The notes: generated by a model from the sequence alone, not told the origin. Positions 27,852-54,983 are shown, numbered from the stretch's first letter. The stretch: 64,000 bases of DNA from Planctomycetota bacterium (GCA_965223265.1 OZ244999.1:3424001-3488000); one strand, 5' to 3'. A program made the numbers and translations.

Positions 27852-28035
27852 AACAGTCCGTTGAGAAAATGCTTCGAGCCGAAAACTGGTCTCTTCGCGT
27901 CCAGATCGGCCGCGTCAAACGCAGGCAATCTTCGCGCCCTCTTCTTTCGATTCTGATGGCGAGTATTGACGCGGCCCGTCTGGGCGTGAAGAGGTCAGTT
28001 TCCTCGGCCGAATGACTTTTTCAATGGGCTGTCAA
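27852..28035 (+). mobile_element. MITE-A copy 2
   Basis: Same arms as copy 1 (GCTTCGAGCCGAAAACTGGTCTCTTCGCGTCCAGATCGGCCGCG...GAATGACTTTTTCAATGGGCTG) with a longer centre. Confidence 0.85.
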
Positions 28036-28288
28036 CTCGAGTTTGGCCATTTCGCGTCGAGCCTGCGAACGCCAGGAGCGTCGAGGCCAAGGAGCGACGA
28101 CAACGCGATCCCGCTCGGGTCGTGGCGGAGGAGCGACGCAGGCATCGGCGCTCCTGGCGTTCCCCGAAGGGCCGGACAGGAGTTTTTGAACATGCACAAG
28201 GGTTCTCAGGGTACTAAAAAGTCGAAAGGGCCTTTGAATTCCCGCGAAACTCGTCCGGCCAGGCCGGCGCGAAATGGCCAAACTCGAG
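28036..28288. mobile_element. MITE-B: non-autonomous 253-bp element with IS701-type ends
   Basis: Perfect 21-bp TIR CTCGAGTTTGGCCATTTCGCG; 5-bp TSD GTCAA (28031-35 / 28289-93); first 15 bp identical to the IS at 52018. Confidence 0.9.
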
Positions 28289-28403
28289 GTCAAGTCAAAA
28301 GCGGTGCCTCGACGGCGACGACCAGGGGGCGCTACACCCACCATGGGAACTGAGGTGCACGTCCATGATGCTGTTCCCCATCATGGGTAACCCACAAACG
28401 CGT

Positions 28404-29723
28404 TCACGACAAAACTGGATTCAGGGCGCTGCGACCCATGCCGGCGTAGGCAAACCCTAGGCTCTTGATCTGTTCTGGGGTGTAAATGTTACGGCAATCG
28501 ATCATGTTCGGGTCGCGCATGAGGTCTTTAACACGGTTGAGATCGAGATTGCGAAACACATCCCATTCCGTCATGACGACGACAGCGTCGGCGTCTCGCA
28601 CCGCATCATACGGGGTTTGGGCGTATGAGATCGAGTCGCCGAACACCCCTTGAGTGTTCTCCACAGCCTCGGGATCGTATGCCGTGACCGAGGCCCCTTC
28701 TTCCAGCAACTGCTCGATGAGCGTGAGAGAGGCGGACTCGCGGATGTCGTCCGTCCTCGGCTTGAACGCCAGTCCCCAAACCGCAATCTGTTTGCCGTTC
28801 AACTCAGGTAGGAATCGTTGAATGCGCGCCAGATGAGATTTCTTGTGATGCTCGTTGACCTGATCGATGGCGCGGAACAGCGTTGCGCTGACCTGGTGAC
28901 TCTCCAGCGTGTCGATGAGGGATCGAACGTCCTTTGGGAAACAGGAACCTCCGTAACCCGGCGACGCCTGCAAGAATCGTGACCCTATGCGCGTGTCGAG
29001 TCCGATCCCGGTCGCGATATCCTTAATATCTGCACCGATTTTTTCGCAGAGCCCGGTGAGCGCGTTCATGAACGAGATGCGGCAGGCGAGCATAGCATTC
29101 GCCGCGTACTTGATGAGCTCGGCAGTCTCGCAATTCATGAAAAGAATAGGGCGATTCACGCGGGAGTGTGAGGAATAGAGCCGCCGCATGACCTCCTTCG
29201 CGCGCTCACTTTCCGCGCCAATGACGATGCGGTCCGGGTTTTGAAAGTCCTTTATGGCAGCGCCTTCTTTCAAGAACTCCGGATTCGAGATCACCTCGAA
29301 CTCAACGTCTGTTAATTTGCTCAGCTCACGTGTTAAACGCCGAGCCGTACCAACGGGCACGGTGCTTTTGTCCACGATTAATGTGAAATCGTCGATGTGC
29401 TGCACGACTGACTCGGCCGCCTGAAAGACATAGGACATTTCCGCCTTGCCGGAGCTTCGCTGCGGCGTACCGACGCAGATAAAGACGACCTGCCGGCCTG
29501 GAATCGCGTCTGCGAGTTGCGTTGTGAACGTCAGTCGTCCCTCGGAGACGTTGCGTTGGATCAGCTCCGCGAGACCAGGTTCGTAGATCGGCACCTTGCC
29601 GTCGTTCAGCTGGGCAATCTTCTCGGCGTCGATGTCCAAGCAGGTGACGTCGTTGCCGAGATCGGCAAAGCACGCTCCCGTCACGAGTCCTACGTATCCT
29701 GTACCAACGATCGCGACCCTCAT
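28404..29723 (-). CDS. ugd: UDP-glucose 6-dehydrogenase
   Basis: GTGYVG, KSTVPVG, SNPEFLKEG, GYGGSCFPKD, GLAFKP.TDD.RES. Confidence 0.95.
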   Translation of the reverse strand: MRVAIVGTGYVGLVTGACFADLGNDVTCLDIDAEKIAQLNDGKVPIYEPGLAELIQRNVSEGRLTFTTQLADAIPGRQVVFICVGTPQRSSGKAEMSYVFQAAESVVQHIDDFTLIVDKSTVPVGTARRLTRELSKLTDVEFEVISNPEFLKEGAAIKDFQNPDRIVIGAESERAKEVMRRLYSSHSRVNRPILFMNCETAELIKYAANAMLACRISFMNALTGLCEKIGADIKDIATGIGLDTRIGSRFLQASPGYGGSCFPKDVRSLIDTLESHQVSATLFRAIDQVNEHHKKSHLARIQRFLPELNGKQIAVWGLAFKPRTDDIRESASLTLIEQLLEEGASVTAYDPEAVENTQGVFGDSISYAQTPYDAVRDADAVVVMTEWDVFRNLDLNRVKDLMRDPNMIDCRNIYTPEQIKSLGFAYAGMGRSALNPVLS

Positions 29724-30012
29724 TGGTGAGCTCCTCTGATGTCGAAAGTTGTCACGCCGCTCGCGAGACTTTCGCGACGACGGGGTCTACAAATGTGCTT
29801 TTTTAACCAATGCTGCAAAAACAACGCTCCGCCATTGTTCCCATTGACGCCTCTTCCGCCAACGAAATATGGACTGAAGGCACGCATGTGCGGGGCTGCC
29901 CCGTGCGGGAGCGGGCTCCTTTGCTCGAATGTCGACGTCGCGGCCAGCCATGCCACCCGCGCGTCAGCGTGGGGGTCGTCCGTTCGCCCATGCACTGCGG
30001 CTCCATCACACG

Positions 30013-32919
30013 CTATCTGGGACGAGGAGTCGTTGACTCGCTTCCAAGGTTGAACACTGGGCGAAAACCGGTAACGGGTAGTCTGCTTTGTGGCGCGAGA
30101 CCGTGTCGGTACGCGGAGCGACAATGGACCGCGTGATGCATCCAACTGCCACCGCGCACAGAGCGCAGCTTACTGCCGGATTGAGCCACGGGGTCCAGCG
30201 CGGACGCGTCCTCGCGTGCGTAGAAGTCCGGGTCGAAGACGTCGGCGCACCACTCCATGACGTTGCCGTGCATGTTGTGGAGGCCGAATCCGTTGGCGCG
30301 GAAAGCGTCGACTGGTACCGTTTTGCCACGACGACGTCCCTCGGCTGCGCCGGGCGTGGGATGGCGCCCGTCGAAATTGAACGCATCGTCGCCGGGGTTA
30401 ACGCCGATGCCAAACGCACCGGCCGCCCCGCCGCGCGCAGCATACTCCCACTGCGCTTCACTCGGGAGTTCAAGGCCAGCGAGCTGGCAGAATTTGACAC
30501 AATCGTCCCAGGAAACCCGCTCGACCGGCAGAGAGCCACCGCGAAACTGCGACGCGCTGTTTTTGTCCATCACGTAGCGCCAGTCAGACTGCGAGACCTC
30601 GTATTTGGCGATCAGAAACGAGCTCAACGTGACCTCGTGGACGGGTCGTTCCTCGGGGGCGCCAGTGTCGGCGGGCGGTGTACCCATGCGGAATGTTGTT
30701 CCCGGCAGGTGCACCATACGAAGTCCGCTGTCGATATGGCGGTACTCCGGCAGGCCTTTGTCGTTGATCATCAGAAAGGTGAGACCAGGGATTCGCAAAC
30801 GAGCATCGCGTGTTGGTGGCGCTGGAGTGGCAGCGCCACCTGGGTTGACGGAGGGCTGGGTGGGAGATTTGCGGAGAACCGTCACCGCGGAGTCGACCGC
30901 CGGGTTCGAGACCGAATCCGAGCGCGCGGTAGATTCGACGTCCGAGCTGAGAGGCGCTTCGGGATCGCCGCTTGTGAGCTCTGTGATCGTCCCAGCCGCG
31001 GTGGGCGGTACCCGCAGCGCAGCGCCTGTGTCATCAGAGCTTTCATCGGGTCGAGGCAACCTGAGCTCTCCCGGCGCGGTGTCTGCCCGAGACACCGAAG
31101 GCGCGTGCGCGTCGGGACGCGAAGGCACCACCGATTCCGACGCCACAACTAGTTCTGTCGCGGCGCTTTCCTCGACGTCGGGTTCCCCCTTGGGTTCTGT
31201 CTCGCCGCTCTCAGTTTCTGGATTCGACGCTGTCGCCGACTTCACCTCCCGATCCACCCCAGCATCCGTGCCCGTCGCTTCTGCCTCTGTCTCTGTCTCC
31301 GTCTCTGTCTCCGTCTCTGTCTCCGTCTCTGTCTCCGTCTCTGTCTCCGTCTCTGTCTCTGCTTCTGTCTCCGTCTCTGCTTCTGTCTCTGCCCCCGCCC
31401 CTGCCTCAGTCTCTGAATCTTCTCCTCCTCCCGCTGCTTCTCCTCCTCCCGCTGCTTCTTCTTCCACCGCCGCACCTACCGCCGCACCTGCCTCGTCCGC
31501 TCTCGTCTCTCCTCCCACCTCTCCGCCCGATGTCGCCGCCACGAGAGCCTGCGACGCCAACGATGCATCCCTCTCGGCGCCGTCGTCTGCGACGAATCCG
31601 GAAATCACGTCGTTCACCGATTCCGGCGCCACGGTCGCTGCCGCTACCGCGTTCGTGGCGTCACGATCGGCATGTGGCGCTCGGCTGACGTCTCCAGACG
31701 CGGCGTTGTCAGCGGCCCCGCCGACGACCAAGAATCCGACTGCGATGATCGCGATGCAGACGATCCCCGCGACAGCACCCGCCAGCCATCTGCGGCGGCG
31801 CGCCGGCACAGGGGGGCTGAGGTTTGGTAGTGTCGCGGCTTCGCTCAAACCGGTCTGGGACACGCGATCGAGTCGTGAGCGTGCCAGTGCGGCTCGCGTG
31901 GCTTCGCCAATGCGAGAAATCACCGCCGCCGGTGGGGGGGAGACAACGCTACAGTGGTTCGCATGATCCGCCTCGGCCGGGACCGACGGAATGGAGTTGA
32001 GGTTTCGTGCGCGGACGATGCGATCAAGTTCGCTGACGAGCGCGTTCGCCGTCGCGTAGCGCTTTCGCGGATCGTGATCGGTGCAGCGCCTGAGGAGCTC
32101 CGCGATCTCGCCGGGAACGTCGTCACGCTCGGCCCCGACGTTGGGAAAGTCTTCCATGCAGACGCGACGCATCACCGCCGGGCGCGTCGCGCAGTCGTAC
32201 GCATCCCGGCCAGCAAGAAGGAAGAAGAGCGTCGCACCGAGCGCCCAGACGTCGCCGGGGGGGCCGACGCGATTCAGTCCTTCCCACTGCTCCGGGGGCA
32301 TGTAGCGAGGGGTACCCATGGGGACATGTGACAGGGTCAGACCCGAGCCGGAGTTGTCGTCGCTCTCCTCGTCAATGAGTCGGCCGAGCCCGAGGTCTCC
32401 GAGCTTCACTTTGCCTTCGAGCGAGATCAAAATGTTGTCCGGTTTGATATCGCGGTGCACGATGCCTTCTTCGTGCGCCGCTGCGAGGCCTCGCGCCGCC
32501 ATCAGAACGAGTGTCACGGCCTCAGCGATGGGCAGTTGCCCTTTGCGCACGACGCGTTCGCGCGCTGTCTCGCCGCGGACGTACTCCATGATCATGTAGT
32601 GCAGTCCGTAGCGATGCCCGACGTCAAACACCCGCACAAGGTTGGGGTGGGTGACTCGTGCCGCGAGCTTGGCCTCGCGTTCGAATCGCTGCACGAGATC
32701 CGTGCCGCGCGCGAGGTTGGGGAGGAGACACTTCACCGCCACGTCGAGGTCAAACTTGAGGTGCACGCCGCGGTAGACCGCGCCCATACCTCCCTCGCCC
32801 ACCTTGTCGTAGAGGATGCAGGGATCGATGACCTTGTAGCCATCGATTTCCGGTGCGTCCGCGAGCAGCGGATCTGTGACGATGTCGGCGACGAATTGCG
32901 TCGTCATCTCTTCGCGCAT
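30013..32919 (-). CDS. Ser/Thr kinase - TM - acidic linker - FGE/SUMF1-like domain
   Basis: GEGGMG, HRDIKPDN, DLG; C-terminal LPSEAQWEYAARG, NGFGLHNMHGNVMEW, RGGSW. Confidence 0.9.
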   Translation of the reverse strand: MREEMTTQFVADIVTDPLLADAPEIDGYKVIDPCILYDKVGEGGMGAVYRGVHLKFDLDVAVKCLLPNLARGTDLVQRFEREAKLAARVTHPNLVRVFDVGHRYGLHYMIMEYVRGETARERVVRKGQLPIAEAVTLVLMAARGLAAAHEEGIVHRDIKPDNILISLEGKVKLGDLGLGRLIDEESDDNSGSGLTLSHVPMGTPRYMPPEQWEGLNRVGPPGDVWALGATLFFLLAGRDAYDCATRPAVMRRVCMEDFPNVGAERDDVPGEIAELLRRCTDHDPRKRYATANALVSELDRIVRARNLNSIPSVPAEADHANHCSVVSPPPAAVISRIGEATRAALARSRLDRVSQTGLSEAATLPNLSPPVPARRRRWLAGAVAGIVCIAIIAVGFLVVGGAADNAASGDVSRAPHADRDATNAVAAATVAPESVNDVISGFVADDGAERDASLASQALVAATSGGEVGGETRADEAGAAVGAAVEEEAAGGGEAAGGGEDSETEAGAGAETEAETETEAETETETETETETETETETETETETEAEATGTDAGVDREVKSATASNPETESGETEPKGEPDVEESAATELVVASESVVPSRPDAHAPSVSRADTAPGELRLPRPDESSDDTGAALRVPPTAAGTITELTSGDPEAPLSSDVESTARSDSVSNPAVDSAVTVLRKSPTQPSVNPGGAATPAPPTRDARLRIPGLTFLMINDKGLPEYRHIDSGLRMVHLPGTTFRMGTPPADTGAPEERPVHEVTLSSFLIAKYEVSQSDWRYVMDKNSASQFRGGSLPVERVSWDDCVKFCQLAGLELPSEAQWEYAARGGAAGAFGIGVNPGDDAFNFDGRHPTPGAAEGRRRGKTVPVDAFRANGFGLHNMHGNVMEWCADVFDPDFYAREDASALDPVAQSGSKLRSVRGGSWMHHAVHCRSAYRHGLAPQSRLPVTGFRPVFNLGSESTTPRPR
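31278..31456. repeat. Intragenic tandem repeats encoding (ET)n and (EAAGGG)2
   Basis: About 5 units of GTCTCCGTCTCT plus degenerate hexamers (31278-31392), and TCTCCTCCTCCCGCTGCT x2 (31421-31456). Confidence 0.9.
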
Positions 32920-33114
32920 GGCGAGGGCAATCAGGCTCCGGACGAGTTGCCGATCGGAAGGGACTCTCTCCTTAGATCGGCTGCTCCCCGGCGACTTTGA
33001 AGCCCGTTGATCAGCGTCGCGCCGCTTTCTCGGATGTCGTGCGCAGCACCGTCGTCAGCACGTCATTGTTGTCGTTGTCGCCGCGGTCGCCGAGGCGGCG
33101 ACGGTTCGTCCGAT

Positions 33115-33936: not shown

Positions 33937-33977
33937 GGTGAGCTCCTACCTTCGAGACGAAGCTGAACGGCGCGTGC

Positions 33978-35318: not shown

Positions 35319-35481
35319 GCTCGCTCCTTGTGGCTCTTCTGTCAGAACCGTCGCTCTCTTCGAGTTTTGTAGGTGTTGGCTTTGTGGGTCTGGCGGGACA
35401 GGCGACGATTAGGGTATACCCGAGGCCTGCTGGTCGTCCAGTCAGAGCGCGCGAGTTTTCCGTCGGCCGTCAACAAGCACG

Positions 35482-43417: not shown

Positions 43418-43567
43418 CGCTGCCTCGCTAGTAGAGTAGGGTCGTCTATACTACTTCAATTGGCACTCGGTCGCTACGCGCCCCGCGGCAGCGATGGGAA
43501 GCCCGACGATTCCGATGATATTGATCCCGCACCGGGTGCCGAAACACAACACGAAGGAGCTGCCATC

Positions 43568-44556: not shown

Positions 44557-45243
44557 ATGACGGAACCTAAGGACGCTAACCAGCCCGAAAAAACAGCAAG
44601 CGGCCAGAGTCACAACGGGGGCGTGAGCCGCCGGCAGTTCCTCAAAGTTGTTGGCGCCGGCGCCGCGGCAGGCCTTGCTGACGAGGGACTGGTCTCGGGG
44701 GCCACCGAACCTGTGAGAACCGGAGAAGAGGCGTGGGGGCCGGATCGAGTTCCCGTCACTCTTCACGTCAACGGAGCGCCTTTGCAGGTCAAGGTGGAGC
44801 CTCGTGTGACGCTCCTCGACTGTCTGCGCGATCACAAATTGGTCAACTCGTCTGACGCGGTTGACCTCACCGGCGCCAAGCGAGTCTGCGACCGTTCGGC
44901 CTGCGGCGCCTGCACGGTGCTTCTCAGCGGCAAAACGGTCTACGCCTGCAGCGTGCTTGCCGTCGAGGTCGACGGACAAGAGATCGTCACAGTCGAAGGG
45001 TTGGGCGATCCAGGCGATCTTCACCCGCTCCAGGAAGCTTTCGTCGAGCACGACGGGCTGCAGTGCGGTTTCTGCACGCCCGGTTTCGTCATGTCGTCGG
45101 TGGCACTACTCGATGAGAATGGTAGCCCGGACGACGCGGAGATCGATCGCAACTTGAGTGGCAACATCTGTCGCTGCGGTACGCAAGTACGCGTTCGCGA
45201 GGCGATTCACGCCGCCGCGAAGAAGATGCGGGGAGGGAGGTAG
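44557..45243 (+). CDS. Mo-hydroxylase 2x[2Fe-2S] subunit with Tat signal (PaoA-like)
   Basis: SRRQFLK; CDRSACGAC, QCGFC, NICRC. Confidence 0.92.
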   Translation: MTEPKDANQPEKTASGQSHNGGVSRRQFLKVVGAGAAAGLADEGLVSGATEPVRTGEEAWGPDRVPVTLHVNGAPLQVKVEPRVTLLDCLRDHKLVNSSDAVDLTGAKRVCDRSACGACTVLLSGKTVYACSVLAVEVDGQEIVTVEGLGDPGDLHPLQEAFVEHDGLQCGFCTPGFVMSSVALLDENGSPDDAEIDRNLSGNICRCGTQVRVREAIHAAAKKMRGGR

Positions 45244-45247
45244 AAAC

Positions 45248-47368
45248 ATGCCACATTGGCCAGAGACACGCCGCATCATCGGTACGGGAGTTCCCCGCGT
45301 TGACGGCGCGCTCAAAGTGAGCGGCCGCGCGAAGTACTCTTTCGATCGCAACCTGCCGGGCATGCTGCACGCGAGAATCCTTAGATCGCCGCATGCACAC
45401 GCTAAGATCAAGTCCGTCGATACGTCGACGCTCGCAGCCATTGCAGGGGTGCGCGCAGTTCATGAGATCAAGTCGGCGGGCGCCGAGCTGCACTATGCAG
45501 GGGATGAAATCGTCGCGGTCGCAGCGGAGACGGAAGCCGTCGCCAACGAAGCGATCCGCGCCATCCGGGTTGACTACGAGGTGCTGCCACACGTCGCCGA
45601 CGAGACCGAGGCGTTTCAAACGAGCGGCCCCACGGTTCTCGAGCCCAACGTCCAAGAGGAAGGAGATGTTGAGGCCGCTCTTGCGGGCGCTAATGTGTCG
45701 ATCAGCGGCGAATACGGCGCGCCGGTCATCACACACGTCTGCCTTGAATCTCACGGCCTGGTGGCCGACTGGATCGCCGACGATGAGCTCGTCGTCTACG
45801 CTTCGACGCAGGCGGTGCACTCGACGGCCAACGGACTCAGGAATCACTTCAAGGGCATTGAAAACCTGAAGGTGACCTGCAACGCTCCTTTCATGGGCGG
45901 CGGTTTCGGCAGTAAGTTCGGCCCCGACGTGCAAGGGATTGCCGCAGCGGAGCTCGCCCGTAAGGCTGGTCGTCCGGTCAAACTCATGCTCGACCGCGCC
46001 GAGGAACACGTGGCTGGCGGCAACCGACCGTCGGCCTACGCGCGCGTCAAAGCCGGGATTGATGGCAATGGCACGCTGACCGCGCTTGACGCTACCACGT
46101 GGGGCACCGGCGGGCACTCGCGCGGTGCTCGGTTCCCACTCCCATACATTTACGCGCCAACGAGCCGGCGCGTCCGCCATCACGATGTGCGCGTCAACGC
46201 CGGCGACGCGCGGGCCATGCGTGCACCAGGGCACCCGCAGGGATCTTTGGTGATGGAGCAGGTAATGGACGACCTCGCCGACAAGGCGGGGATCGACCCT
46301 GTCGAATTCCGGCTCCAAAATCTGCCGGAGACCAACGACACGTTCAAGACACTGAAAGCTATCTACACACGCGAGCTTAAGCTCGGGGCGGAGCGCATTG
46401 GCTGGAAAGCCAATCGCCACCCGCGCGGTGACCAGACGCGCGGTCCGATCAAGCGTGGACTCGGCTGCGCCCTCAGCACTTGGGGCGGGCGACCGGGTGG
46501 CTCTCAGGCGACCTGTACGATCTACCCGACGGGACAGGTTGAGGTGCGCTGCGGCACGCAGGACCTTGGTGTGGGTACGACCACCTTGGTGCCATTGGTC
46601 GCGGCGGAGATCCTTGGCCTCGAGCCAAGCGACGTCACCGGTTTGATTGGCAGCTCGGCGTTCCCGCAATCTGGAGGCAGCGGTGGTAGCACCACCGTCG
46701 GGGGCGTGAGCCTGTCGACGGCGATCAGCACGCAGAAGGCGTTAGCGAAGCTCCTCAGTGTCGTCGCAGACCATCTCGATGTGGCAGCAGATCAGCTCGA
46801 AGCCAAAGGCGGGAAAATCGTCGTCAAGGGCGGCGATCGGAGCCTCAGCTGGCGACGCGCCTGCACGCTTCTCGGTGTCGACCCGGTCAGCGCCAACGCC
46901 GACAAACGCGAAGGCGAGAAAACCATGGCGAGCCAGGGAGTCGGTGGCGCTCAGTTCGTTGATCTATCCGTCGACACGGAGACCGGGGAAGTGCGTCTCA
47001 ACAAGATCGTCGCCGTGGCCGACTGTGGCATGGTGATGAATCGCCTGCTGTGCGAAAGCCAGGTGATCGGCGGCGTCATCATGGGACTCAACTACGGACT
47101 CTTCGAAGATCGTCGCCTCGACCGCGCCAGCGGCCGCCAAGTGAACCCCGATCTCGAGTGGTACAAGCTCGCCAGCCACGCGGACATCGGCGAGATCGAG
47201 TGCCACCTGCTCGACTACCCCGAGCGTGGCACGATCGGCATCGGCGAACCGCCGACGATTCCGACGGCAGCGGCGATCGCCAACGCTGTCTGCAACGCGA
47301 TTGGCGTGCGCGTCGGTACGATTCCCATGTCGCCGAAACGAATCCTCGATGCCCTTAGCAAAGCTTAA
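45248..47368 (+). CDS. Xanthine dehydrogenase family molybdopterin-binding subunit (PaoC-like)
   Basis: RSPHAHA, GGGFGSK, AMRAPG, QDLGVG, SGGS, GIGEPP. Confidence 0.92.
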   Translation: MPHWPETRRIIGTGVPRVDGALKVSGRAKYSFDRNLPGMLHARILRSPHAHAKIKSVDTSTLAAIAGVRAVHEIKSAGAELHYAGDEIVAVAAETEAVANEAIRAIRVDYEVLPHVADETEAFQTSGPTVLEPNVQEEGDVEAALAGANVSISGEYGAPVITHVCLESHGLVADWIADDELVVYASTQAVHSTANGLRNHFKGIENLKVTCNAPFMGGGFGSKFGPDVQGIAAAELARKAGRPVKLMLDRAEEHVAGGNRPSAYARVKAGIDGNGTLTALDATTWGTGGHSRGARFPLPYIYAPTSRRVRHHDVRVNAGDARAMRAPGHPQGSLVMEQVMDDLADKAGIDPVEFRLQNLPETNDTFKTLKAIYTRELKLGAERIGWKANRHPRGDQTRGPIKRGLGCALSTWGGRPGGSQATCTIYPTGQVEVRCGTQDLGVGTTTLVPLVAAEILGLEPSDVTGLIGSSAFPQSGGSGGSTTVGGVSLSTAISTQKALAKLLSVVADHLDVAADQLEAKGGKIVVKGGDRSLSWRRACTLLGVDPVSANADKREGEKTMASQGVGGAQFVDLSVDTETGEVRLNKIVAVADCGMVMNRLLCESQVIGGVIMGLNYGLFEDRRLDRASGRQVNPDLEWYKLASHADIGEIECHLLDYPERGTIGIGEPPTIPTAAAIANAVCNAIGVRVGTIPMSPKRILDALSKA

Positions 47369-47383
47369 GCAGAGGAAGTTCCA

Positions 47384-48361
47384 ATGAAACCCTTCAAATA
47401 CACTGCTCCCGTCACCGAAGCCAGCGCCTGTGGGCTGCTCGGCGAGGGCTCCCTCGCTTTTGCTGGTGGCACTAGCGCGATGAACCTGCTCAAAGAAAAC
47501 GTCCTGACGCCAGACGTCGTTGTCGATCTCAAGCGCATCGAAGGGCTCTCTTCGATCGAGCCGACATCGTCGGGTCTGCGCATCGGGGCGAACGTCACGC
47601 TCGACGAGGTTCTCGCACACGATGGTGTGCGCCGCGACTACCCCGTGCTGCACCAAGCACTCTTCAACGCAGCGACGCCACAGATTCGCAATCGCGCCAC
47701 ACTCGGTGGGAACCTGTGCGCCCGCCCGGCCTGCTGGTACTTCTCTCAAGAGGCGTTCGGCTGTGCCAAGAGCGGCGGATCAGGTTGCCCTGCAAAGGAA
47801 GGCGAGAACGAGCACCACGCCATCTTCGACACCGATGGTCCTTGTGTTATGGTGCACGCTTCAAGCGCTGCGCCCGCGCTTTTGGCGCTTGAGGCCAAGG
47901 TGCGAATTGTTGGCCCCGGTCGTCAGCAAATCATCGGACTCGATGATTTCTTCACGTCTCCGTCGGCAGACGTCAAACGCGAGAATGTTTTGGCGGCGAA
48001 CGAGATCATCACTCATGTCGTGCTTGGCGCGCCCAGCGCCAAGAGCGCAACATACGAGGTAAGGCAGAAGGCAACGCACGATTGGCCGATTGCCCTCGCC
48101 TCTGTGGCACTGGATATCCGCTCCGGGGTGTGCCAAGCTGCCCGCATATTCCTTGGCGCCGTCGCACCGCTTCCGGTCCGGGCGAGCGGCGGCGAGAAGG
48201 CTCTGGTCGGCCAGCGCATCGACGCCCAGGTGGCTGCGCGTGCGGCCGCCAAAGCCGTCGAACGTGCGCGGCCGCTCCGCCAAAACGGCTACAAGGTGGC
48301 GGTGGCTCAGGCGGTGGTCAAGCGGGCTATTCTGCAAGCGGCGACGGGATCGTGGCAGTGA
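47384..48361 (+). CDS. Mo-hydroxylase FAD subunit with Cys insertion (PaoB-like)
   Basis: AGGT, ATPQIRNRATLGGN, CWYF..C....GC..HAI...C, QNGYK. Confidence 0.9.
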   Translation: MKPFKYTAPVTEASACGLLGEGSLAFAGGTSAMNLLKENVLTPDVVVDLKRIEGLSSIEPTSSGLRIGANVTLDEVLAHDGVRRDYPVLHQALFNAATPQIRNRATLGGNLCARPACWYFSQEAFGCAKSGGSGCPAKEGENEHHAIFDTDGPCVMVHASSAAPALLALEAKVRIVGPGRQQIIGLDDFFTSPSADVKRENVLAANEIITHVVLGAPSAKSATYEVRQKATHDWPIALASVALDIRSGVCQAARIFLGAVAPLPVRASGGEKALVGQRIDAQVAARAAAKAVERARPLRQNGYKVAVAQAVVKRAILQAATGSWQ

Positions 48362-48390
48362 GGCGGAGCGAGCTTTCAAGGAGAAGCACC

Positions 48391-48636
48391 ATGAGCAAAT
48401 CGGTACAGCAGCCCTGTTTCAATCTGCGCTCGAAGGAGATGCTCTACGGCGAGAAGACCGACGAGGCGATCGCTCACGACAAAGAAGTCGAACGTCTGTT
48501 CGGTGCCTGCGATACAGCGGCGTACTGGTGTCAATGCACTCAGACCGGCCGCGGTCCCGACGATCAGCCGGTCAATCGACCGGCGTGCAGCCTCCTCGGC
48601 CGCAAGTGCTATGAAGGGATCGGCGATCTGACCTAG
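48391..48636 (+). CDS. Small Cys-rich hypothetical protein (81 aa)
   Basis: AAGGAG RBS; CFNLRSK...YWCQCTQTGRGPD...C......C. Confidence 0.7.
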   Translation: MSKSVQQPCFNLRSKEMLYGEKTDEAIAHDKEVERLFGACDTAAYWCQCTQTGRGPDDQPVNRPACSLLGRKCYEGIGDLT

Positions 48637-48800
48637 CCCGTGGCGCTGACGTCGCTGGCTCCGGCCGCCGAATGTTGAACGCTCCGACGTGGAGTCGCGT
48701 CGGAGCAAAACGCAGCCTTGATGCTCCCGCCTCTTCCCTCCAGAATGATGTCTTCAGCAGTTCAATGTTGACGTCATGTTCGATGTTTGGAGGAACAGTT

Positions 48801-49520
48801 ATGAAGCTCAAGCTGGCTGGCGCGGCAGTGGCGCTCGTAGCGTCGGTGGCGATATGCGCTCTCCTGAGCGAAGACTTTGCAGCGGCAAAGGGGCTTTCGC
48901 TGGCCAAAATCGAGGGCGAGTACGTTGAAGCCCGCACCTGTGACGTTTGGACGGGGCCGTGCTTCACGAACGGCGAGATCAACCTACGGGGAGACCACGC
49001 CATCATGGGATGGTCTCTGAAGCGCGGCAACTGGCAAGGCGTACAACTTGTCGGACTGCGCGTCGCTGCGGCCATCGATTCGGAAGGCACGCTCGGCACC
49101 CGCACTGAAGGCAAGGTGCGTTCGGTCGTGTTCGTCGATGCGAAGGCAAGCGACTCGCAAGCAAAGGCGTTAGTGGCGCTGGCACGTGAGTTAGCACCGA
49201 AGTACCTCGGCGACATCGTTCAGGTTCGGCGTGCAAAGATCACCTACAAGCGCGTCATGAGCGAGGTCACCCTCGATGTACACGCGAGCCGCAACGAGAA
49301 AAGCTCTGACGGGGCCGAGGTGCGGCTGAAAACCACGATGCTTCGACCTCATTGCGACGTCATCTGCGGCAATGAGGAGAAGGCGTTTCCGTCGCTGGCT
49401 TCGACGGTGAGCTCCAGGTGCGCGAAGGTCGTCACCAACGCCTACCAGGGTGGCGATCTCGGCCAGCGCTGGAGTGATCCGAACACTCGTGGCGCCATGA
49501 TTGGCAGTTTTCGCCTTTAG
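48801..49520 (+). CDS. Exported DUF1326-like protein
   Basis: GGAGG RBS; signal peptide; GEYVEARTCDVWTGPCFTNGE. Confidence 0.7.
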   Translation: MKLKLAGAAVALVASVAICALLSEDFAAAKGLSLAKIEGEYVEARTCDVWTGPCFTNGEINLRGDHAIMGWSLKRGNWQGVQLVGLRVAAAIDSEGTLGTRTEGKVRSVVFVDAKASDSQAKALVALARELAPKYLGDIVQVRRAKITYKRVMSEVTLDVHASRNEKSSDGAEVRLKTTMLRPHCDVICGNEEKAFPSLASTVSSRCAKVVTNAYQGGDLGQRWSDPNTRGAMIGSFRL

Positions 49521-49573
49521 CAGGCTGTTCGCAGCCTGTTGACCCCGAGTTTGGCCGTGGTGTTGCGAGAATC

Positions 49574-50305
49574 ATGAAGAAAGACAAGGCTTCGAGTCGG
49601 CAGCGTGTTGCTTCACTTCTAGGATGGATGGGTGTCGGCTGTGCGGCCGTCGTTTTCTGTCTCGGAGGGTTTCAGCAGGGCACGGCCGAGACGCCAACAG
49701 GATACAAGCTCTCGAAGCTCAAGGAGGCGGCGCCGAAAAGCGCCGCGAAGAACGTCCGCGAGCTGCTGGCACCGTCTGGTTTGCGAGTCTCCGACTCGAA
49801 AGACAAGCCATTCATTGACGTTTGGCTGCGTAAGAGCGTTCAGACGCAGAACGATCCGGGACAGCTCGGAGTCGACTACGGCATGCTCCCGGAGGGCACG
49901 ATCCTCGGCCTCCTGCGTTTCCATGATGCTGGTGGTGGTGACTTTCGTGACAACAAGATCCCGGCGGGCGTATATCTCTTCCGCAGCGCGATTCAGCCGG
50001 AGGATGGGGATCATCAAGGGGTGTCGGACAGCCGCGACTTCGCCCTTGTCTGCCCAGCCGAGGGTGAGATCAGCGTCGGGCCAATGTCCACCGACGAGGC
50101 CGTCAAGGAGAGCGTCAAAGTCTCGGGAATCGAGCACCCCAGCGTGCTTTTCTTGAAGAAGTTTTTCGACGAAGCGAAAGATCTGCCACGCCTTGTGAAG
50201 GAGGACGGTGGCTTCTGGATTCTCGACTGCCAGGTGCCTGACGCGAAGAAGGGCGCCGACCCGGTGCGGCTCGGGATCGTGCTTGTCGGGCACGCTGACG
50301 AATGA
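49574..50305 (+). CDS. Exported hypothetical protein
   Basis: Signal-like N-terminus; DFR..IPAGVY...QPEDGDHQGVS..RDF. Confidence 0.65.
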   Translation: MKKDKASSRQRVASLLGWMGVGCAAVVFCLGGFQQGTAETPTGYKLSKLKEAAPKSAAKNVRELLAPSGLRVSDSKDKPFIDVWLRKSVQTQNDPGQLGVDYGMLPEGTILGLLRFHDAGGGDFRDNKIPAGVYLFRSAIQPEDGDHQGVSDSRDFALVCPAEGEISVGPMSTDEAVKESVKVSGIEHPSVLFLKKFFDEAKDLPRLVKEDGGFWILDCQVPDAKKGADPVRLGIVLVGHADE

Positions 50306-50326
50306 TCGGCGGCTGACGGAGACGGC

Positions 50327-51319
50327 ATGGAATACAGACGCTTAGGTGCGAGCGGTCTTCTCGTCTCTCCGGTCTGCTTGGGCACGATGACGTTCGGCAC
50401 GCCGGTGGGGGAGGACGATGCGGTCCGCCTCGTGCATGCCGCAATCGATCTCGGTATCAACTTCGTCGACACGGCGAATGTCTACGAAGGCTACACGAGA
50501 TACCTCGGCAGCGACGGTGGCGTTGCCGAGGAGATCGTCGGCCGGGCGCTCGAGGGACGGCGTGAGAAGGTCGTGCTGGCAACGAAGGTCGGTGCGCCCC
50601 TGGGACCCGGACCGCAGGACCGCGGCCTGTCGGCAACTCACATCCTGCGTGAGGTCGACTGCAGTCTGCAGCGCCTGAAGACGGACTACATCGATCTCTA
50701 TATCATTCATTGGCCGGACTGCGAAGTGGCGCTCGAGACGACGCTCAAGGCTGTCGACGTGGCTGTGCGCCAAGGCAAAGTGCGCTGCTTTGGAGCTTCC
50801 AATCACTCCGCAGCTGAGCTGTGCGAGTTTCTGTGGCTCGCCGACAAGACCGCTGGCCCGCGGGTCGTCTCGTCGCAGATACCGTACAGTCTGATGCGAA
50901 GGGAGTTTCATGGCGACTTGGCATTCTGCGCTCGCCACGACATTGCGGTGACTCCGTATCAGCCTCTCCAGGGGGGCCTTCTAACGGGCAAGTACCGCCG
51001 GCACGCCGCACCGCCGGCCGACTCACGCGCGGCCGAAAAGCCGGACTGGATTTGGCAGCTCGACGAGCAGAAATACGACCAACTCGAGGCGCTCGAAGCG
51101 CTCGCCAACGAGCTTGGCGTATCGATGACGGAGTATGCCCTGGCGTGGACCCTGACGCAGCCAGCGATGGCCTCCGTGGTTGTCGGCGCGAAACGCGTCG
51201 AACAGATCGCGGAGGCTGTAAGAGCTGCTGAGGTCGAGATCCCGACTGCGCACGCCGGGAAAATCGACACGATCTTCCCACCGCCGTGGCGACAGATGGA
51301 TCCGCTGCGGGGGATGTGA
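50327..51319 (+). CDS. Aldo/keto reductase
   Basis: LGTMTFG, DTANVY, LATK, SLQRLKTDYIDLYIIHWPD, GGLLTGKY. Confidence 0.95.
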   Translation: MEYRRLGASGLLVSPVCLGTMTFGTPVGEDDAVRLVHAAIDLGINFVDTANVYEGYTRYLGSDGGVAEEIVGRALEGRREKVVLATKVGAPLGPGPQDRGLSATHILREVDCSLQRLKTDYIDLYIIHWPDCEVALETTLKAVDVAVRQGKVRCFGASNHSAAELCEFLWLADKTAGPRVVSSQIPYSLMRREFHGDLAFCARHDIAVTPYQPLQGGLLTGKYRRHAAPPADSRAAEKPDWIWQLDEQKYDQLEALEALANELGVSMTEYALAWTLTQPAMASVVVGAKRVEQIAEAVRAAEVEIPTAHAGKIDTIFPPPWRQMDPLRGM

Positions 51320-51347
51320 AGCGCTCGCATCAGCCAGTGGTCGCTCT

Positions 51348-51674
51348 CTAATCCTGCACGGACCGCTCGATCGCTCGACGAAGTTCGTTGGGGTCGGCGA
51401 CGGCAAGCTCTATCCTGTGTTCGCCGAGAATCGAGCGTAGTTCCTCGATCGTCTGACTGGAACGTTCCAGCGCATCGTCAACTGTTTCACAATCACGTCT
51501 AGCCATGGCGACGTAGAGCGTCTCGTTCTTTCTCGCAATCGGAAGCACTCCCTTATCGAGGGCGACCTGCCTGGGCACTATATCGACAAACTCTGCCGGA
51601 ATAGATGCCTTCGACAAGTTTGCGAAGGGAGCGTCCAGTGTCAATGCGAGGTATCTCGGGTCGTCTGGATCCAT
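51348..51674 (-). CDS. Stand-alone GspE/PilB N-terminal (T2SSE_N)-like domain
   Basis: LA..L..PF..L......VP...A....VLPI......LYVAM...I....A...ELRRAIER pattern. Confidence 0.6.
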   Translation of the reverse strand: MDPDDPRYLALTLDAPFANLSKASIPAEFVDIVPRQVALDKGVLPIARKNETLYVAMARRDCETVDDALERSSQTIEELRSILGEHRIELAVADPNELRRAIERSVQD

Positions 51675-51850
51675 ATCCGGAGTTTAGAGCGAGATCGTCG
51701 TTTTCTCACATCGACTCGAATCGTTTTCGACGCCGTTTCATCACGCTTGTCAGAATCAACGGCGAGTCTGCCGTCGACCAAGTTACGTCTTTGCCTGAAG
51801 GCGTCTCGTGTAGGAAAAGGTATGTTCGAGAACCTGCAGCTCGCGATGAG

Positions 51851-52017
51851 CTAGCAGCCTGTTGAAAAAGTGCTTCGAGCCGAAAACTGGTCTCTTCGCG
51901 TCCAGATCGGCCGCGGCAAACGCAGGTAATCTCCGAGATTTTCGAGTATTGACGCGGTCGAGCTGGGCGTGAAGAGGCCGGTTTCTCGGCCGAATGACTT
52001 TTTCAACGGGCTGCTAG
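51851..52017 (+). mobile_element. MITE-A copy 3
   Basis: CTAG-CAGCCTGTTGAAAAAGT...ACTTTTTCAACGGGCTG-CTAG, with CTAG at both ends. Confidence 0.9.
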
Positions 52018-53466
52018 CTCGAGTTTGGCCATGGAATAGGCCGGTAAAGAAAGACACCTCCGCTACCGATAACGAAGTTGCAAAACACTATTATCGGACG
52101 GAGGTGAAGAGTGTCTCCAGTATCGTCGTTTCTGTCCCTCTTGGCCAGCTTTGCTCCACTGATGACGCCGTCGAGTTTTGAGAACTTCCAGTTGCTCGCC
52201 GGTGGCTGGGTCCTGAGCACGCGACGAAGGACGGTTACCGAGCTCATTCAGCGTGTAGGTGTGGTAGAACTGAAAAGCTACTCGACGTTCCATCGATTTT
52301 TCAATCGCGCACAGTGGTCGATCGACGAAGTTGGCCGCTTGGTACTGTCGCTCGCGCTGCGTCTGATTCCACCGGGTGGAGTTGTCCGCCTCGTCGTCGA
52401 CGACACGCTTTGCAAAAAAGGCGGGCAGCACATCTTCGGCAGTGGTATGCACCGTGATGCTTTGGCGTCGACTCGTAAGCTCGCGAGACTGAGCTGGGGC
52501 CACAACTGGGTGGTCGTCGGCGTGATCGTCGAGTTCCCGTTCGCGCGTGGAATCTCGTGGTGTCTTCCGATCGCGTTTCGACTCTACGTCACCAAGACGA
52601 GACCGAAGAGCCAGCGGTGGCGTGAAGAGACCGTCTATCGCACACGTCCCGAGCTCGCAGTGGAGATGCTCGAGATGATCGCCAAATGGCACCCAAATAG
52701 GCGTTTCCTGCTGGTTGGCGATTCGGCGTATGGCGGTGGTTCGGTGTTGAGAAATCTTCCCGAGCGGTTTCACCTCACCAGCCGCATCGTCATGGATGCC
52801 GCGCTCTTTGCTCCGCCGCCACGGCGCTATGCGGGTACGGGGCGTCCACGGCGAAGAGGAAAGCGTCTGCCGAGTCCTAAACAGATCGCGTCTTCGAGAA
52901 GGCCATGGAAAAAGCTGAATCTTCGACTCTACGGGGCGAAGCGTCGCGTTCTCGTCAAAGAGACCGAAGGCCTCTGGCTCAAGAGCGACTACCGCCCCAT
53001 CAAGGTCGTCGTGGTGCGCGACCCTCGTGGTGTGAACAAAGACGAAGCGTTCTATTCCACCGACACCAAGGCGTCCGCAACGACCATTCTTCAGACCTAC
53101 TCGCGACGATGGAGCATCGAGGTCGCATTCGAAAACGCCAAGGGGCACTTCGGCTTTGAAGATCCACAGAATCGAACCGTCGAAGCCGTGCAACGCACGG
53201 CGCCTTTCGGTGCGTTGTTGTACAGCATGGTGATTCTTTGGTTCAACGCCCACGGTCATAAGAAATGTCGATTCCCAAATCGCCCTTGGTATGAACGTAA
53301 GTGCTTTGCTTCGTTTAAAGATATGGTCGATACGCTACGAGCCGAATCACTCCACGAGCACTTTCGACGCACCCCGGCTTCTGTTCGGGGGCGACAAAAG
53401 ACCCTTCAGGCTGCGTTCGCAGCATTGGGGCTCGTTGCATGACCAGAATCCATGGCCAAACTCGAG
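52018..53466 (+). mobile_element. IS701-family insertion sequence, 1449 bp
   Basis: 18-bp perfect TIR CTCGAGTTTGGCCATGGA; 5-bp TSD GCTAG (52013-17 / 53467-71); one transposase ORF. Confidence 0.92.
52111..53442 (+). CDS. IS701-family DDE transposase
   Basis: VVDDTLCKK, WGHNWVV, LPIAFRLY, GDSAYG, YSRRWSIEVAF. Confidence 0.9.
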   Translation: MSPVSSFLSLLASFAPLMTPSSFENFQLLAGGWVLSTRRRTVTELIQRVGVVELKSYSTFHRFFNRAQWSIDEVGRLVLSLALRLIPPGGVVRLVVDDTLCKKGGQHIFGSGMHRDALASTRKLARLSWGHNWVVVGVIVEFPFARGISWCLPIAFRLYVTKTRPKSQRWREETVYRTRPELAVEMLEMIAKWHPNRRFLLVGDSAYGGGSVLRNLPERFHLTSRIVMDAALFAPPPRRYAGTGRPRRRGKRLPSPKQIASSRRPWKKLNLRLYGAKRRVLVKETEGLWLKSDYRPIKVVVVRDPRGVNKDEAFYSTDTKASATTILQTYSRRWSIEVAFENAKGHFGFEDPQNRTVEAVQRTAPFGALLYSMVILWFNAHGHKKCRFPNRPWYERKCFASFKDMVDTLRAESLHEHFRRTPASVRGRQKTLQAAFAALGLVA

Positions 53467-53479
53467 GCTAGACCAATAG

Positions 53480-54982: not shown

Positions 54983-54983
54983 C

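What the first reader, a model, noticed from the sequence alone, without database searches (positions are those of the whole stretch)
27852..53471. IS701-type elements insert at the same end of an IS5-type MITE: possible three-tier mobile-element hierarchy
Seen: both complete IS701-type elements (MITE-B 28036-28288 and the IS 52018-53466) follow the same end of MITE-A (...GAATGACTTTTTCAAYGGGCT). Each duplicates the 5 bp that start at the terminal G of MITE-A (GTCAA and GCTAG). The equivalent sites in copy 1 (GCTAG, 8057-8061) and copy 4 (GTTAA on the minus strand) are empty. The third TIR at 1860-1871 is flanked by GTTAG, as expected for the same target. Inference: MITE-A ends act as intergenic landing pads for the IS701-type family, whose TIR is in turn the target of the group II intron. 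Caveat: IS5-subgroup and IS701 elements are both known to favour YTAR sites, which could partly explain the pattern, although GTCAA is not YTAR. The sample is only two insertions plus one partial.
Basis: partly seen in the sequence, partly recalled or inferred. Interest (0 to 1): 0.85.

Follow-up and report, generated by a model that had tools for sequence, protein, structure and literature searches.

The report
IS701 elements home to MITE ends
In this 9.2-Mb bacterial genome, an IS701-family jumping gene and its miniature derivatives land mostly at the tips of a different, abundant miniature transposon, and their own tips are in turn hit by a group II intron and an IS91-type element, which makes a nested hierarchy of mobile DNA.

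Summary
The window's two cases (MITE-B 28036-28288, IS 52018-53466) both sit 4 nt beyond a MITE-A end. Each has a 5-bp duplication made of MITE-A's terminal G plus its 4-bp TSD.

- **Adjacency:** 33 of 48 complete IS701-type elements abut a MITE-A-type end. These include all 4 identical 1449-bp IS copies.
- **Enrichment:** MITE-A ends supply only about 9% of non-coding GYTAR sites, so chance is excluded (p about 1e-22).
- **Order of insertion:** two tests show the IS701-type element arrived second.
- **Excision scars:** thirty further empty MITE-A ends carry a tandem GYTARGYTAR, which I read as an excision scar. This duplication occurs only at period 5.
- **Not site saturation:** MITE-A rarely sits next to MITE-A (2 of 506 ends), so a shortage of neutral sites does not explain the pattern.
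- **Higher tiers:** all 5 group II intron copies and all 4 copies of an IS91-type element split the IS701-type TIR at fixed positions.
- **Other organisms:** five metagenome contigs show the same junction with diverged elements.

The concept has known parallels (IS231A/Tn4430, IS5075/Tn21). I therefore class this as a new variant of a known kind. How the target is recognised remains unknown.

The parts
7898..8057 (.). MITE-A copy 1 (160 bp). Both ends are empty, and the right end is followed by CTAG (8058-8061).
27854..28031 (.). MITE-A copy 2 (178 bp). Its flanks are TGAA on the left and TCAA on the right. The right end is occupied by MITE-B.
28031..28035 (+). Left copy of the 5-bp target duplication GTCAA. 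It consists of MITE-A's terminal G plus the 4 nt beyond it.
28036..28288 (.). MITE-B (253 bp), a non-autonomous element with the IS701-type 15-bp TIR CTCGAGTTTGGCCAT at both ends. Its TTCGCGTCGA end faces MITE-A.
28289..28298 (+). Right TSD copy GTCAA (28289-28293) followed by a further GTCAA (28294-28298). I read the extra copy as the scar of an earlier visit to the same site.
51855..52013 (.). MITE-A copy 3 (159 bp) with a perfect 4-bp TSD CTAG (51851-51854 and 52014-52017).
52018..53466 (+). IS701-family insertion sequence, 1449 bp, with perfect 15-bp TIRs and a 5-bp TSD GCTAG (52013-52017 and 53467-53471). It is one of 4 identical copies in the genome, all at MITE-A ends.
52111..53442 (+). 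Transposase gene (443 aa). It matches NCBIfam NF049999 IS701 family at 348 bits (cut-off 170) and Pfam DDE_5.
59112..59289 (.). MITE-A copy 4 (178 bp). Both ends are empty.
1860..1876 (-). The first 12 nt of an IS701-type TIR (CTCGAGTTTGGC, 1860-1871) plus the flank GTTAG (1872-1876). This is the 5' exon of the intron insertion site.
1..1859 (-). Group II intron, about 1988 nt in total. Its 5' end is at 1859, and about the last 130 nt lie upstream of the window. The intron-encoded protein gene is at 30-1355 (441 aa, RVT_1 + GIIM). Rfam D1-D4 matches 1693-1833.

Best explanation
The 1449-bp IS701-family element, and the ~253-bp MITEs that carry only its 15-bp TIR, insert with a 5-bp duplication of consensus G-YTAR. 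They strongly prefer the GYTAR formed where an already resident IS1182/IS5-like MITE (MITE-A) ends: its terminal G plus its own 4-bp YTAR duplication.

Every MITE-A insertion therefore creates two such sites. The IS701-type transposase uses them roughly 15 to 40 times more often per site than other non-coding GYTAR sites.

The elements also leave again. Empty MITE-A ends often carry a tandem GYTARGYTAR. This is the scar expected if an IS4-like hairpin excision leaves blunt flanks that are rejoined by end joining (inferred).

The IS701-type TIR is itself the fixed insertion site of a group II intron (between GGC and CAT) and of an IS91-type element (between CTCGAG and TTTGGCC).

Shown: the adjacency, the enrichment, the order of insertion, the period-5 scars and the fixed positions of the higher tiers. 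Inferred: that the preference comes from recognition of the MITE-A terminus (its DNA sequence, its T-tract bend, or a protein bound there) rather than from selection, and that the scars arise by excision and end joining.
For: **1. Adjacency**
- 33 of 48 paired elements abut a MITE-A-type end.
- All 4 of 4 IS copies do so. They are identical at 1449 of 1449 positions and have different junction 4-mers and flanks.
- 33 of 48 elements have perfect 5-bp TSDs.

**2. Enrichment**
- There are 13871 GYTAR sites in the genome, 3583 in crude non-coding DNA and 322 at MITE-A ends.
- 27 of 35 G-side TIR ends are at MITE-A ends, against a null of 8.8% (p 4e-22).
- Element present: 29 of 410 MITE-A-related non-coding sites against 7 of 3582 other non-coding sites (odds ratio 39).
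- Scars: odds ratio 11.6 (35 scarred and 346 plain sites against 31 and 3544; sites holding an element left out).

**3. Order of insertion**
- The far flank is always G plus the junction 4-mer. If MITE-A had come second, the base before its distal TSD would also have to be G.
- That base is non-G in 7 of 13 occupied ends and 10 of 22 scarred ends.
- The reverse order also predicts equal numbers at +4 and +5. Observed: 63 against 8 (p 1e-11).

**4. Scars**
- At 463 free MITE-A ends, tandem duplication starting at the terminal G occurs 30 times at period 5 and 0-1 times at periods 3, 4, 6 and 7.
- Genome-wide there are 70 such tandems, and 30 of them are at strict MITE-A ends. Three sites are triple repeats.
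- A Ku gene is present (154 bits).

**5. Not saturation of neutral sites**
- MITE-A also targets YTAR, yet it is followed by another MITE-A at only 2 of 506 ends.

**6. Other organisms**
- Of 8 metagenome contigs with the junction, 5 show a TTTTTCAA..GGCTG end that the search pattern did not require.
- These ends sit beside B-like elements 73-82% identical to MITE-B. One (L019) sits beside a full-length IS1182-like IS.

**7. Higher tiers**
- 5 of 5 intron copies are at one TIR position.
- 4 of 4 near-full-length IS91-type copies (99.7% identical) lie beside a B TIR; the split of the TIR was read directly in one copy and in a 48-bp relic.
Against: - 15 of 48 complete elements are not at a strict MITE-A end, so the end is preferred but not required.
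- In a relative (G017), 3 of 3 B-like ends examined have flanks that are not MITE-A-like.
- The non-coding null rests on my own crude codon-usage gene caller (5595 genes, 86.5% coding). It wrongly of 322 MITE-A-end sites coding.
- Selection against insertions elsewhere in intergenic DNA cannot be fully separated from targeting. Enrichment is lower for scars (about 12-fold) than for resident elements (about 39-fold), which suggests selection adds about a factor of 3.
- G before the distal TSD is somewhat commoner at visited ends (18 of 35) than at plain ends (75 of 221; p 0.058). A minority of reverse-order events therefore remains possible.
- Solo sites share only GYTAR with MITE-A ends, so no short extended motif explains the preference.
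- The far-side TSDs are not preserved in the 3 metagenome elements that could be checked.
- No empty-versus-filled polymorphism was observed directly.
Confidence: 0.8

Rival explanations
1. There is no real targeting. Both families simply like YTAR. Insertions elsewhere in the compact genome are purged, so survivors pile up where a MITE already shows that an insertion is tolerated (a passive safe haven).
For: - Both element types use YTAR cores.
- Resident elements or scars are almost absent from coding DNA: 7 of 9847 sites.
- Enrichment is about 3-fold lower for 5-bp scars than for resident 253-bp elements, as expected if selection contributes.
Against: - MITE-A ends are about 9% of crude non-coding GYTAR sites but hold 77% of G-side ends.
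- MITE-A persists at hundreds of different intergenic YTAR sites (at least 181 two-ended copies), so such sites are tolerant of insertion.
- MITE-A almost never lands beside another MITE-A (2 of 506 ends), although those flanks are equally neutral.
- Scars, which should be under little selection, are still about 12-fold enriched.
- +4 is used far more than +5 (63 against 8).
Confidence: 0.12
2. The order is reversed. The IS701-type elements inserted first at GYTAR sites, and MITE-A (4-bp YTAR target) later inserted into the YTAR of their flanking duplication.
For: - The window's IS copy fits both orders, because the base before MITE-A's distal CTAG is G.
- G at that position is mildly over-represented at visited ends: 18 of 35 against 75 of 221 (p 0.058).
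Against: - That base is not G in 17 of 35 informative composites or scars, although the model requires G in all of them.
- The model predicts equal numbers at 4 nt and 5 nt spacing. Observed: 63 against 8.
- The four IS copies are identical and therefore young, whereas the MITE-A copies are diverged.
Confidence: 0.04
3. The composites are copies of a few ancestral MITE-A+MITE-B units that spread together, by segmental duplication or joint mobilisation. On this view they are not independent insertions.
For: In one metagenome contig (L020), the MITE-A-like plus B-like unit is flanked on both outer sides by GTAAG. This hints at a possible joint move. It is a single case.
Against: - Junction 4-mers differ: CTAG 8, CTAA 8, TTAG 6, TCAA 3, TTAA 3, TTAC 2 and others.
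- Both MITE-A ends and both subfamilies are used.
- The outer flanks are all different, and the far flank repeats G plus the junction 4-mer rather than MITE-A's distal flank.
Confidence: 0.02

Closest known systems
IS231A (IS4 family) inserting into the terminal inverted repeats of Tn4430 in Bacillus thuringiensis
   Same: A DDE transposon of the IS4 superfamily whose preferred natural target lies in the end of another transposon. In that case the preference was ascribed to a short consensus plus DNA bending. MITE-A ends likewise carry a T5 tract 10-11 nt from the target.
   Different: - The IS family differs (IS701).
- The TSD is 5 bp GYTAR, not 11 bp GGGN5CCC.
- The target straddles the host element's last base and its TSD rather than lying inside the TIR.
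- The host is a high-copy MITE.
- Excision scars are present here.

   Basis: the IS231A target motif and the Hallet 1994 title were seen in a table and reference list of PMC2577343. The association with Tn4430 was seen only as a reference title in PMC6199540. The Tn4430-end detail is recalled and was not read.
IS4321/IS5075 (IS1111 group, IS110 family) targeting the TIRs of Tn21-family transposons
   Same: An IS whose specific target is the terminal inverted repeat of another transposon family, inserted at a fixed position and orientation.
   Different: Those are DEDD recombinase elements, now known to be guided by a bridge RNA, and they make no TSD. The element here has a DDE transposase with a 5-bp TSD and only a statistical preference, not an absolute one.

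   Basis: abstract and reference list of PMC8269217; search listing of PMC11208160.
Group II intron RmInt1 homing into ISRm2011-2 in Sinorhizobium meliloti
   Same: A bacterial group II intron with an RT-maturase protein (no endonuclease domain was detected here) whose natural homing site lies inside an insertion sequence. It therefore spreads with, and within, the IS copies.
   Different: The homing site here lies within the 15-bp TIR and is shared by MITEs and the IS. Only 5 of roughly 100 intact TIRs are occupied.

   Basis: abstract of PMC1802570 in the search listing.
REP/BIME-targeting IS (for example ISPpu9, IS110 family, in Pseudomonas putida REP sequences)
   Same: A mobile element that uses an abundant intergenic repeat as a safe landing site.
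   Different: The landing pad here is the end of a transposon-derived MITE plus its TSD, not a REP hairpin. The enzyme class also differs.

   Basis: abstract of PMC12288879 in the search listing.

Membership tests
IS701 family (the 1449-bp IS) | A DDE transposase that matches a curated IS701-family model above its cut-off | tested here: met
   NF049999 scores 348 bits against a cut-off of 170. Pfam DDE_5 scores 88.8 bits.
IS701 family (the 1449-bp IS) | A single transposase ORF in an element of about 1.4-1.5 kb bounded by short TIRs, with a short TSD (the family description is recalled from ISfinder and was not checked in a call) | tested here: met
   The element is 1449 bp with one 443-aa ORF, perfect 15-bp TIRs and a 5-bp TSD.
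IS701 family (MITE-B as its non-autonomous derivative) | Same TIR and same TSD length and target as the autonomous element | tested here: met
   The 15-bp TIR is identical and the TSDs are 5-bp GYTAR-type. There is no internal homology to the IS: the blastn search with the IS found only its 4 full copies.
IS5 / IS1182 families (MITE-A and its parent) | A transposase-bearing element with the same termini, whose transposase passes a family model | tested here: inconclusive
   A 1519-bp IS at genome 8354778-8356296 has the same terminal ~16 nt and a CTAG TSD. Its 446-aa protein scores IS1182 199.7 bits (below 270) and IS5_4 104.8 bits (below 140). Pfam finds DUF772 + DDE_Tnp_1.
IS5 / IS1182 families (MITE-A and its parent) | A 4-bp target duplication of YTAR type | tested here: met
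   128 of 181 two-ended copies have a perfect 4-bp TSD, and 108 of those 128 are CTAG, CTAA, TTAG or TTAA.
Transposons that target the ends of other transposons | A fixed position relative to the host element's end, at a frequency far above what target-motif availability predicts | tested here: met
   33 of the 43 adjacent cases are at exactly +4. 27 of 35 G-side ends are at MITE-A ends against 8.8% expected. The odds ratio is 17 against other non-coding GYTAR sites.
Transposons that target the ends of other transposons | Target preference shown in a transposition assay free of selection | not testable with these tools
   This needs bench work.
Bacterial group II intron | Ribozyme domains, an RT-maturase ORF and a conserved insertion site | tested here: met
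   Rfam RF02003 scores 90.3 bits against a gathering threshold of 49. The ORF has RVT_1 (125.7 bits) and GIIM (56.5 bits). 5 of 5 copies share the same 5' junction.
IS91 family (element X) | A Y2 HUH rolling-circle transposase | tested here: met
   Pfam Y2_Tnp scores 201.4 bits, and there is a second ORF of the Phage_integrase family. Ends and target tetranucleotide were not analysed.

The most novel reading that the evidence does not exclude
The IS701-family transposase has evolved to recognise the terminus of an unrelated IS1182/IS5-like element, either its DNA or the transposase bound to it. It uses that element's MITEs as dedicated, renewable docking sites. It hops on and off them by cut-and-paste, with Ku-dependent rejoining that leaves countable 5-bp scars. 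The partnership is old enough to persist between diverged versions of both partners in other organisms. Together with the intron and the IS91-type element that home to the IS701 TIR, this forms a four-member chain of hyperparasitic mobile elements. Its visit history can be read directly from one genome.
Probability: 0.4. Interest if true: 0.75.

Novelty: new variant of a known kind. Interest (0 to 1): 0.6.

Why it matters
Target choice is poorly understood for the IS701 family. This genome offers an unusually large natural data set for one transposase: about 70 insertions or scars at one defined kind of site, an internal control (MITE-A itself avoids those sites), and a readable record of excision.

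If the preference reflects recognition of another element's terminus, it would be a compact DDE system for safe-haven integration. It would also be a clear bacterial case of layered parasitism among mobile elements (a MITE, then an IS701-type IS and its MITE, then an intron and an IS91-type element).

The period-5 scars also suggest that cut-and-paste excision with end joining is frequent in a bacterium that carries Ku. Such scars are not something I know to be well documented for bacterial IS elements; I did not check this beyond one search listing.

On the practical side, these nested repeats explain why short-read assemblies of this organism break here.

Tried and rejected
**Relatives**
- A blastn search with MITE-B over 30 relatives gave only weak partial hits in G012 and G017.
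- The exact TIR occurs 103 times in G000 and 0-1 times in each of 20 other genomes of the order. The reversed-pattern control gave 0 in G000.
- No sister strain was therefore available for an empty-versus-filled comparison.

**Genome contigs**
- The junction pattern gave 0 hits.
- The 21-nt MITE-B end gave one hit, in a MAG, which looks like a chance match in unrelated sequence.

**Sequencing runs**
- Four runs of one study hold the region.
- When laid on window 45000-60000, their contigs break at every repeat copy. None bridges an empty site.
- The IS has about 4 times the depth of its flanks.
- This says nothing for or against polymorphism.

**Metagenome junction contigs**
- The far-side TSD was not preserved in the 3 of 8 contigs where it could be checked.
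- These contigs therefore confirm the junction geometry only.

**Search for an extended target motif**
- Solo sites do not share the bases upstream of GYTAR with MITE-A ends.
- Among sites with GGCT before GYTAR that blastn does not recognise as MITE-A, 6 of 108 carry scars. By eye these look like degenerate MITE-A-type ends, so no minimal motif could be defined.
- A position-by-position comparison of visited and plain MITE-A ends showed no discriminating position. Perfect ends are visited more often (50 of 326) than ends with 1-2 mismatches (13 of 166).

**Literature**
- Searches found no paper describing IS701-type insertion at MITE or IS ends. Only open-access full texts are covered.
- PMC98933 is not held.
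- The passages read in PMC8944449 and PMC6199540 gave nothing on IS701 target choice or on IS231/Tn4430 ends beyond reference titles.
- Supplementary files were not consulted.

**Tools and steps not used or not followed up**
- I rejected the idea that ends of the form 'CATTCGGTGCACC' mark the intron boundary. They belong to a third MITE subfamily that shares the TIR.
- Structure prediction, complex prediction and large protein searches were not used, because they would not bear on the question.

Full report
**What is in the window.**
- MITE-A copy 2 (27854-28031) ends ...TTCAATGGGCTG. Four bases later (TCAA), MITE-B begins with CTCGAGTTTGGCCAT (28036-28288). GTCAA, which is the last G of MITE-A plus TCAA, recurs at 28289-28293.
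- MITE-A copy 3 (51855-52013) is flanked by CTAG on both sides. The 1449-bp IS (52018-53466) follows the right-hand CTAG, and GCTAG recurs at 53467-53471.
- Copies 1 (7898-8057) and 4 (59112-59289) have empty ends.
- The IS encodes a 443-aa protein that matches the NCBIfam IS701-family model NF049999 at 348 bits (cut-off 170), as well as Pfam DDE_5.
- MITE-B shares only the 15-bp TIR with the IS. A blastn search with the IS finds only its four full-length copies.

For the IS copy, the base before MITE-A's distal CTAG is G. The arrangement G-CTAG-[A]-CTAG-[IS]-GCTAG therefore fits two histories equally well. Either the IS inserted into the MITE-A end, or MITE-A inserted later into the CTAG of the IS's left duplication. 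Only genome-wide data can decide between them.

**Genome-wide census.** The window is G000:C1:3424001-3488000 of a single 9.18-Mb contig with 60.8% GC.
- Patterns for the two MITE-A terminal variants find 506 ends at up to 2 mismatches.
- 181 copies have both ends. 128 of these have a perfect 4-bp TSD, and 108 of those 128 are CTAG, CTAA, TTAG or TTAA.
- A TIR-plus-inner-sequence search finds 164 IS701-type ends. They pair into 48 complete elements: 44 MITEs (43 of 228-269 bp and one of 504 bp) and 4 IS copies.
- 33 of the 48 abut a MITE-A-type end (32 at one end, 1 at both) and 15 do not. 33 of the 48 have a perfect 5-bp TSD.
- All four IS copies are identical at 1449 of 1449 positions. Each abuts a MITE-A end, with junctions TTAA, CTAG, CTAA and CTAG and unrelated flanks.
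- Counted from the MITE-A side, the 506 ends divide as follows: 33 carry the TIR at exactly +4, 4 at +5, and 6 at other offsets up to 10; 30 carry a tandem G-YTAR-G-YTAR; 4 carry YTARC-YTARC; 429 are plain.

**Is this more than YTAR frequency would give?**
- The genome has 13871 GYTAR sites on both strands.
- A crude codon-usage gene caller that I wrote (5595 ORFs, 86.5% coding) leaves 3583 of them in non-coding DNA. 322 lie at MITE-A ends.
- MITE-A ends are therefore about 8.8% of plausibly neutral GYTAR sites. Yet they hold 27 of the 35 TIR ends that have GYTAR on their G side (p 4e-22).
- Per site, an element or a scar is present at 64 of 410 MITE-A-related non-coding sites, 38 of 3582 other non-coding sites and 7 of 9847 coding sites.
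- The odds ratios are 17 overall, 39 for resident elements and 11.6 for scars.
- The crude caller wrongly marks 68 of 322 MITE-A-end sites as coding. It therefore probably understates the non-coding pool, which would make the true enrichment larger.

**Order of insertion.** Two independent tests favour the IS701-type element arriving second.
- *First test.* If MITE-A had inserted into an existing TSD, the base before its distal TSD would have to equal the first base of the far-side duplication, which is always G. Among composites with a perfect MITE-A TSD, that base is C in 7 and G in 6 of 13. Among scarred ends it is G 12, C 6, A 2, T 2 of 22. Plain ends give G 75, C 107, T 29, A 10 of 221.
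- *Second test.* The reverse order predicts MITE-A equally often 4 nt from one side and 5 nt from the other side of the element. Observed: 63 against 8 (p 1e-11).
- A mild excess of G (18 of 35 against 75 of 221; p 0.058) leaves room for a few reverse-order events.

**Scars.**
- GYTARGYTAR tandems occur 70 times in the genome. 30 are exactly at strict MITE-A ends, 5 lie just beyond a TIR, 4 or more are on the YTARC side of a MITE-A end, and others follow degenerate MITE-A-like ends. Three sites are triple repeats.
- At the 463 free MITE-A ends, duplication starting at the terminal G occurs 30 times at period 5 and 0-1 times at periods 3, 4, 6 and 7. This matches the 5-bp TSD of the IS701-type elements and not the 4-bp TSD of MITE-A.
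- I read these as excision scars that retain both TSD copies. That is the product expected if an IS4-like transposase hairpins the transposon ends, leaves blunt flanks, and end joining reseals them. The Tn5/Tn10 mechanism is established knowledge; its transfer to IS701 is my inference.
- The genome encodes Ku (PF02735, 154 bits).
- The window shows one such case: the extra GTCAA at 28294-28298.

**Targeting or passive safe haven?** The best internal control is MITE-A itself.
- MITE-A also inserts at YTAR, and every copy creates two YTAR flanks in DNA that is already disrupted.
- Despite this, a MITE-A end is followed by another MITE-A at only 2 of 506 ends (one pair seen from both sides).
- A shortage of neutral sites therefore does not force elements together.
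- Scars should be under little selection, and they are still about 12-fold enriched. The gap between 12-fold and 39-fold suggests that selection adds about a factor of three.

**Other features of the preference.**
- Both MITE-A ends and both subfamilies are used: 37 of 215 and 20 of 198 by end, and 41 of 366 and 22 of 126 by subfamily.
- Perfect ends are visited more than mismatched ones: 50 of 326 against 13 of 166.
- By junction, CTAA, CTAG and TTAG are visited at 19-23% and TTAA at 9%.
- The TTCGCGTCGA end of MITE-B faces MITE-A in 19 of 23 cases and faces the G side in 5 of 8 solo cases. The orientation bias therefore belongs to the asymmetric 5-bp target.
- Solo sites share nothing with MITE-A ends beyond GYTAR.
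- What is recognised remains open: the terminal sequence, the T5 tract 10-11 nt away, or a bound protein.

**The likely parent of MITE-A.**
- A 1519-bp IS at genome 8354778-8356296 has the same terminal ~16 nt and a CTAG TSD.
- It encodes a 446-aa DUF772 + DDE_Tnp_1 protein. Its best family hits are IS1182 (199.7 bits, cut-off 270) and IS5_4 (104.8 bits, cut-off 140).
- 'IS5-type' is therefore only approximate.

**Higher tiers.**
- Rfam finds group II intron domains at 1693-1833 on the minus strand.
- The 441-aa ORF at 30-1355 has RVT_1 and GIIM domains.
- Five intron copies exist: three full-length, one interrupted and one deleted. All five have the junction CTCGAGTTTGGC|GTACGCC. The 3' junction is ...CTCTAC|CGTTTCGCGCC.
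- One copy (genome 3515652) shows all three tiers in a row: MITE-A end, CTAG, TIR, intron.
- Separately, a 2.56-kb element encoding a Y2 (IS91-type) transposase and a tyrosine recombinase has four near-full-length copies, 99.7% identical, each lying beside an IS701-type TIR. In the copy I read base by base (L022) and in a 48-bp relic it splits the TIR between CTCGAG and TTTGGCC; three further TIRs carry its end sequence in place of their first bases.

**Elsewhere.**
- The TIR family is essentially confined to this genome among those held: 103 exact copies here, against 0-1 in each of 20 genomes of the order.
- A metagenome scan for GGCTG-YTAR-TIR returned 8 contigs.
- 5 of the 8 show a TTTTTCAA..GGCTG end that the pattern did not require, next to B-like elements only 73-82% identical to MITE-B. 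One of these (L019) lies next to a full-length IS1182-like IS.
- Because the pattern presupposed the junction, this shows that the arrangement recurs but gives no rate.
- In relative G017, 3 of 3 B-like ends examined have other flanks.

**Comparison with what is known.** Insertion into the ends of other transposons is established for IS231A/Tn4430 and for IS4321/IS5075 in Tn21-family TIRs. Intron homing into an IS is established for RmInt1 in ISRm2011-2 (the IS231A/Tn4430 end detail is recalled).

The following points appear not to be described in the literature searched:
- the IS family involved;
- a target that straddles the host MITE's last base and its TSD;
- the scale of the natural sample;
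- the scar record;
- the four-element chain.

**Verdict.** This is a new variant of a known kind, and the recognition mechanism is unresolved.

Noticed in passing
genome 3517852-3520427 (locus L022 about 157-2720), plus 3 more copies at about 96675-99245, 2247720-2250255 and 3569322-3571893: A 2.56-kb element encodes a Y2 (IS91-type) transposase and a tyrosine recombinase. It has four near-full-length copies, 99.7% identical, each beside an IS701-type TIR. In the copy I read (L022), it splits the TIR between CTCGAG and TTTGGCC. A 48-bp relic of its end sits in the same TIR position at genome 1901854.
   Followed up: partly
genome-wide, for example 4038212, 5430602 and 7212318 (minus strand): Several tandem scars are preceded by YTAGC, giving for example CTAGC-GCTAG-GCTAG. 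CTAG-C-G-CTAG is what excision of MITE-A would leave if one terminal base were kept on each side. MITE-A may therefore also excise and leave footprints. This is speculative.
   Followed up: no
window 28294-28298; genome 2034162, 3220882 and 8337873 (minus strand): Extra copies of the 5-mer, including triple tandems, occur at MITE-A ends or beyond MITE-B. They imply repeated insertion and excision at the same end.
   Followed up: partly
genome 7234164-7234408, 3423638 and 8 more ends: A third MITE subfamily shares the IS701-type TIR but continues CATTCGGTGCACC... with an internal palindrome. It hosts the window's intron copy.
   Followed up: partly
window 48900-48914 and 49544-49558: There are two degenerate TIR-like matches with 2 mismatches each. 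The second is preceded by ...CAGCCTGTTGAC, which resembles a MITE-A left end. These may be decayed elements.
   Followed up: no
window 31256-31439: A 12-nt tandem repeat array (TCTGTCTCCGTC-like, about 11 or more units), probably coding low-complexity sequence.
   Followed up: no
locus L020 (metagenome contig): A MITE-A-like plus B-like composite is flanked on both outer sides by GTAAG. This is a possible joint transposition of the pair. It is a single case and could be chance.
   Followed up: no
genome 7469040-7469642: One MITE-B is flanked by MITE-A ends on both sides without a matching TSD (GTTAG against CTAGC). This is most simply explained by recombination between two MITE-B copies.
   Followed up: no
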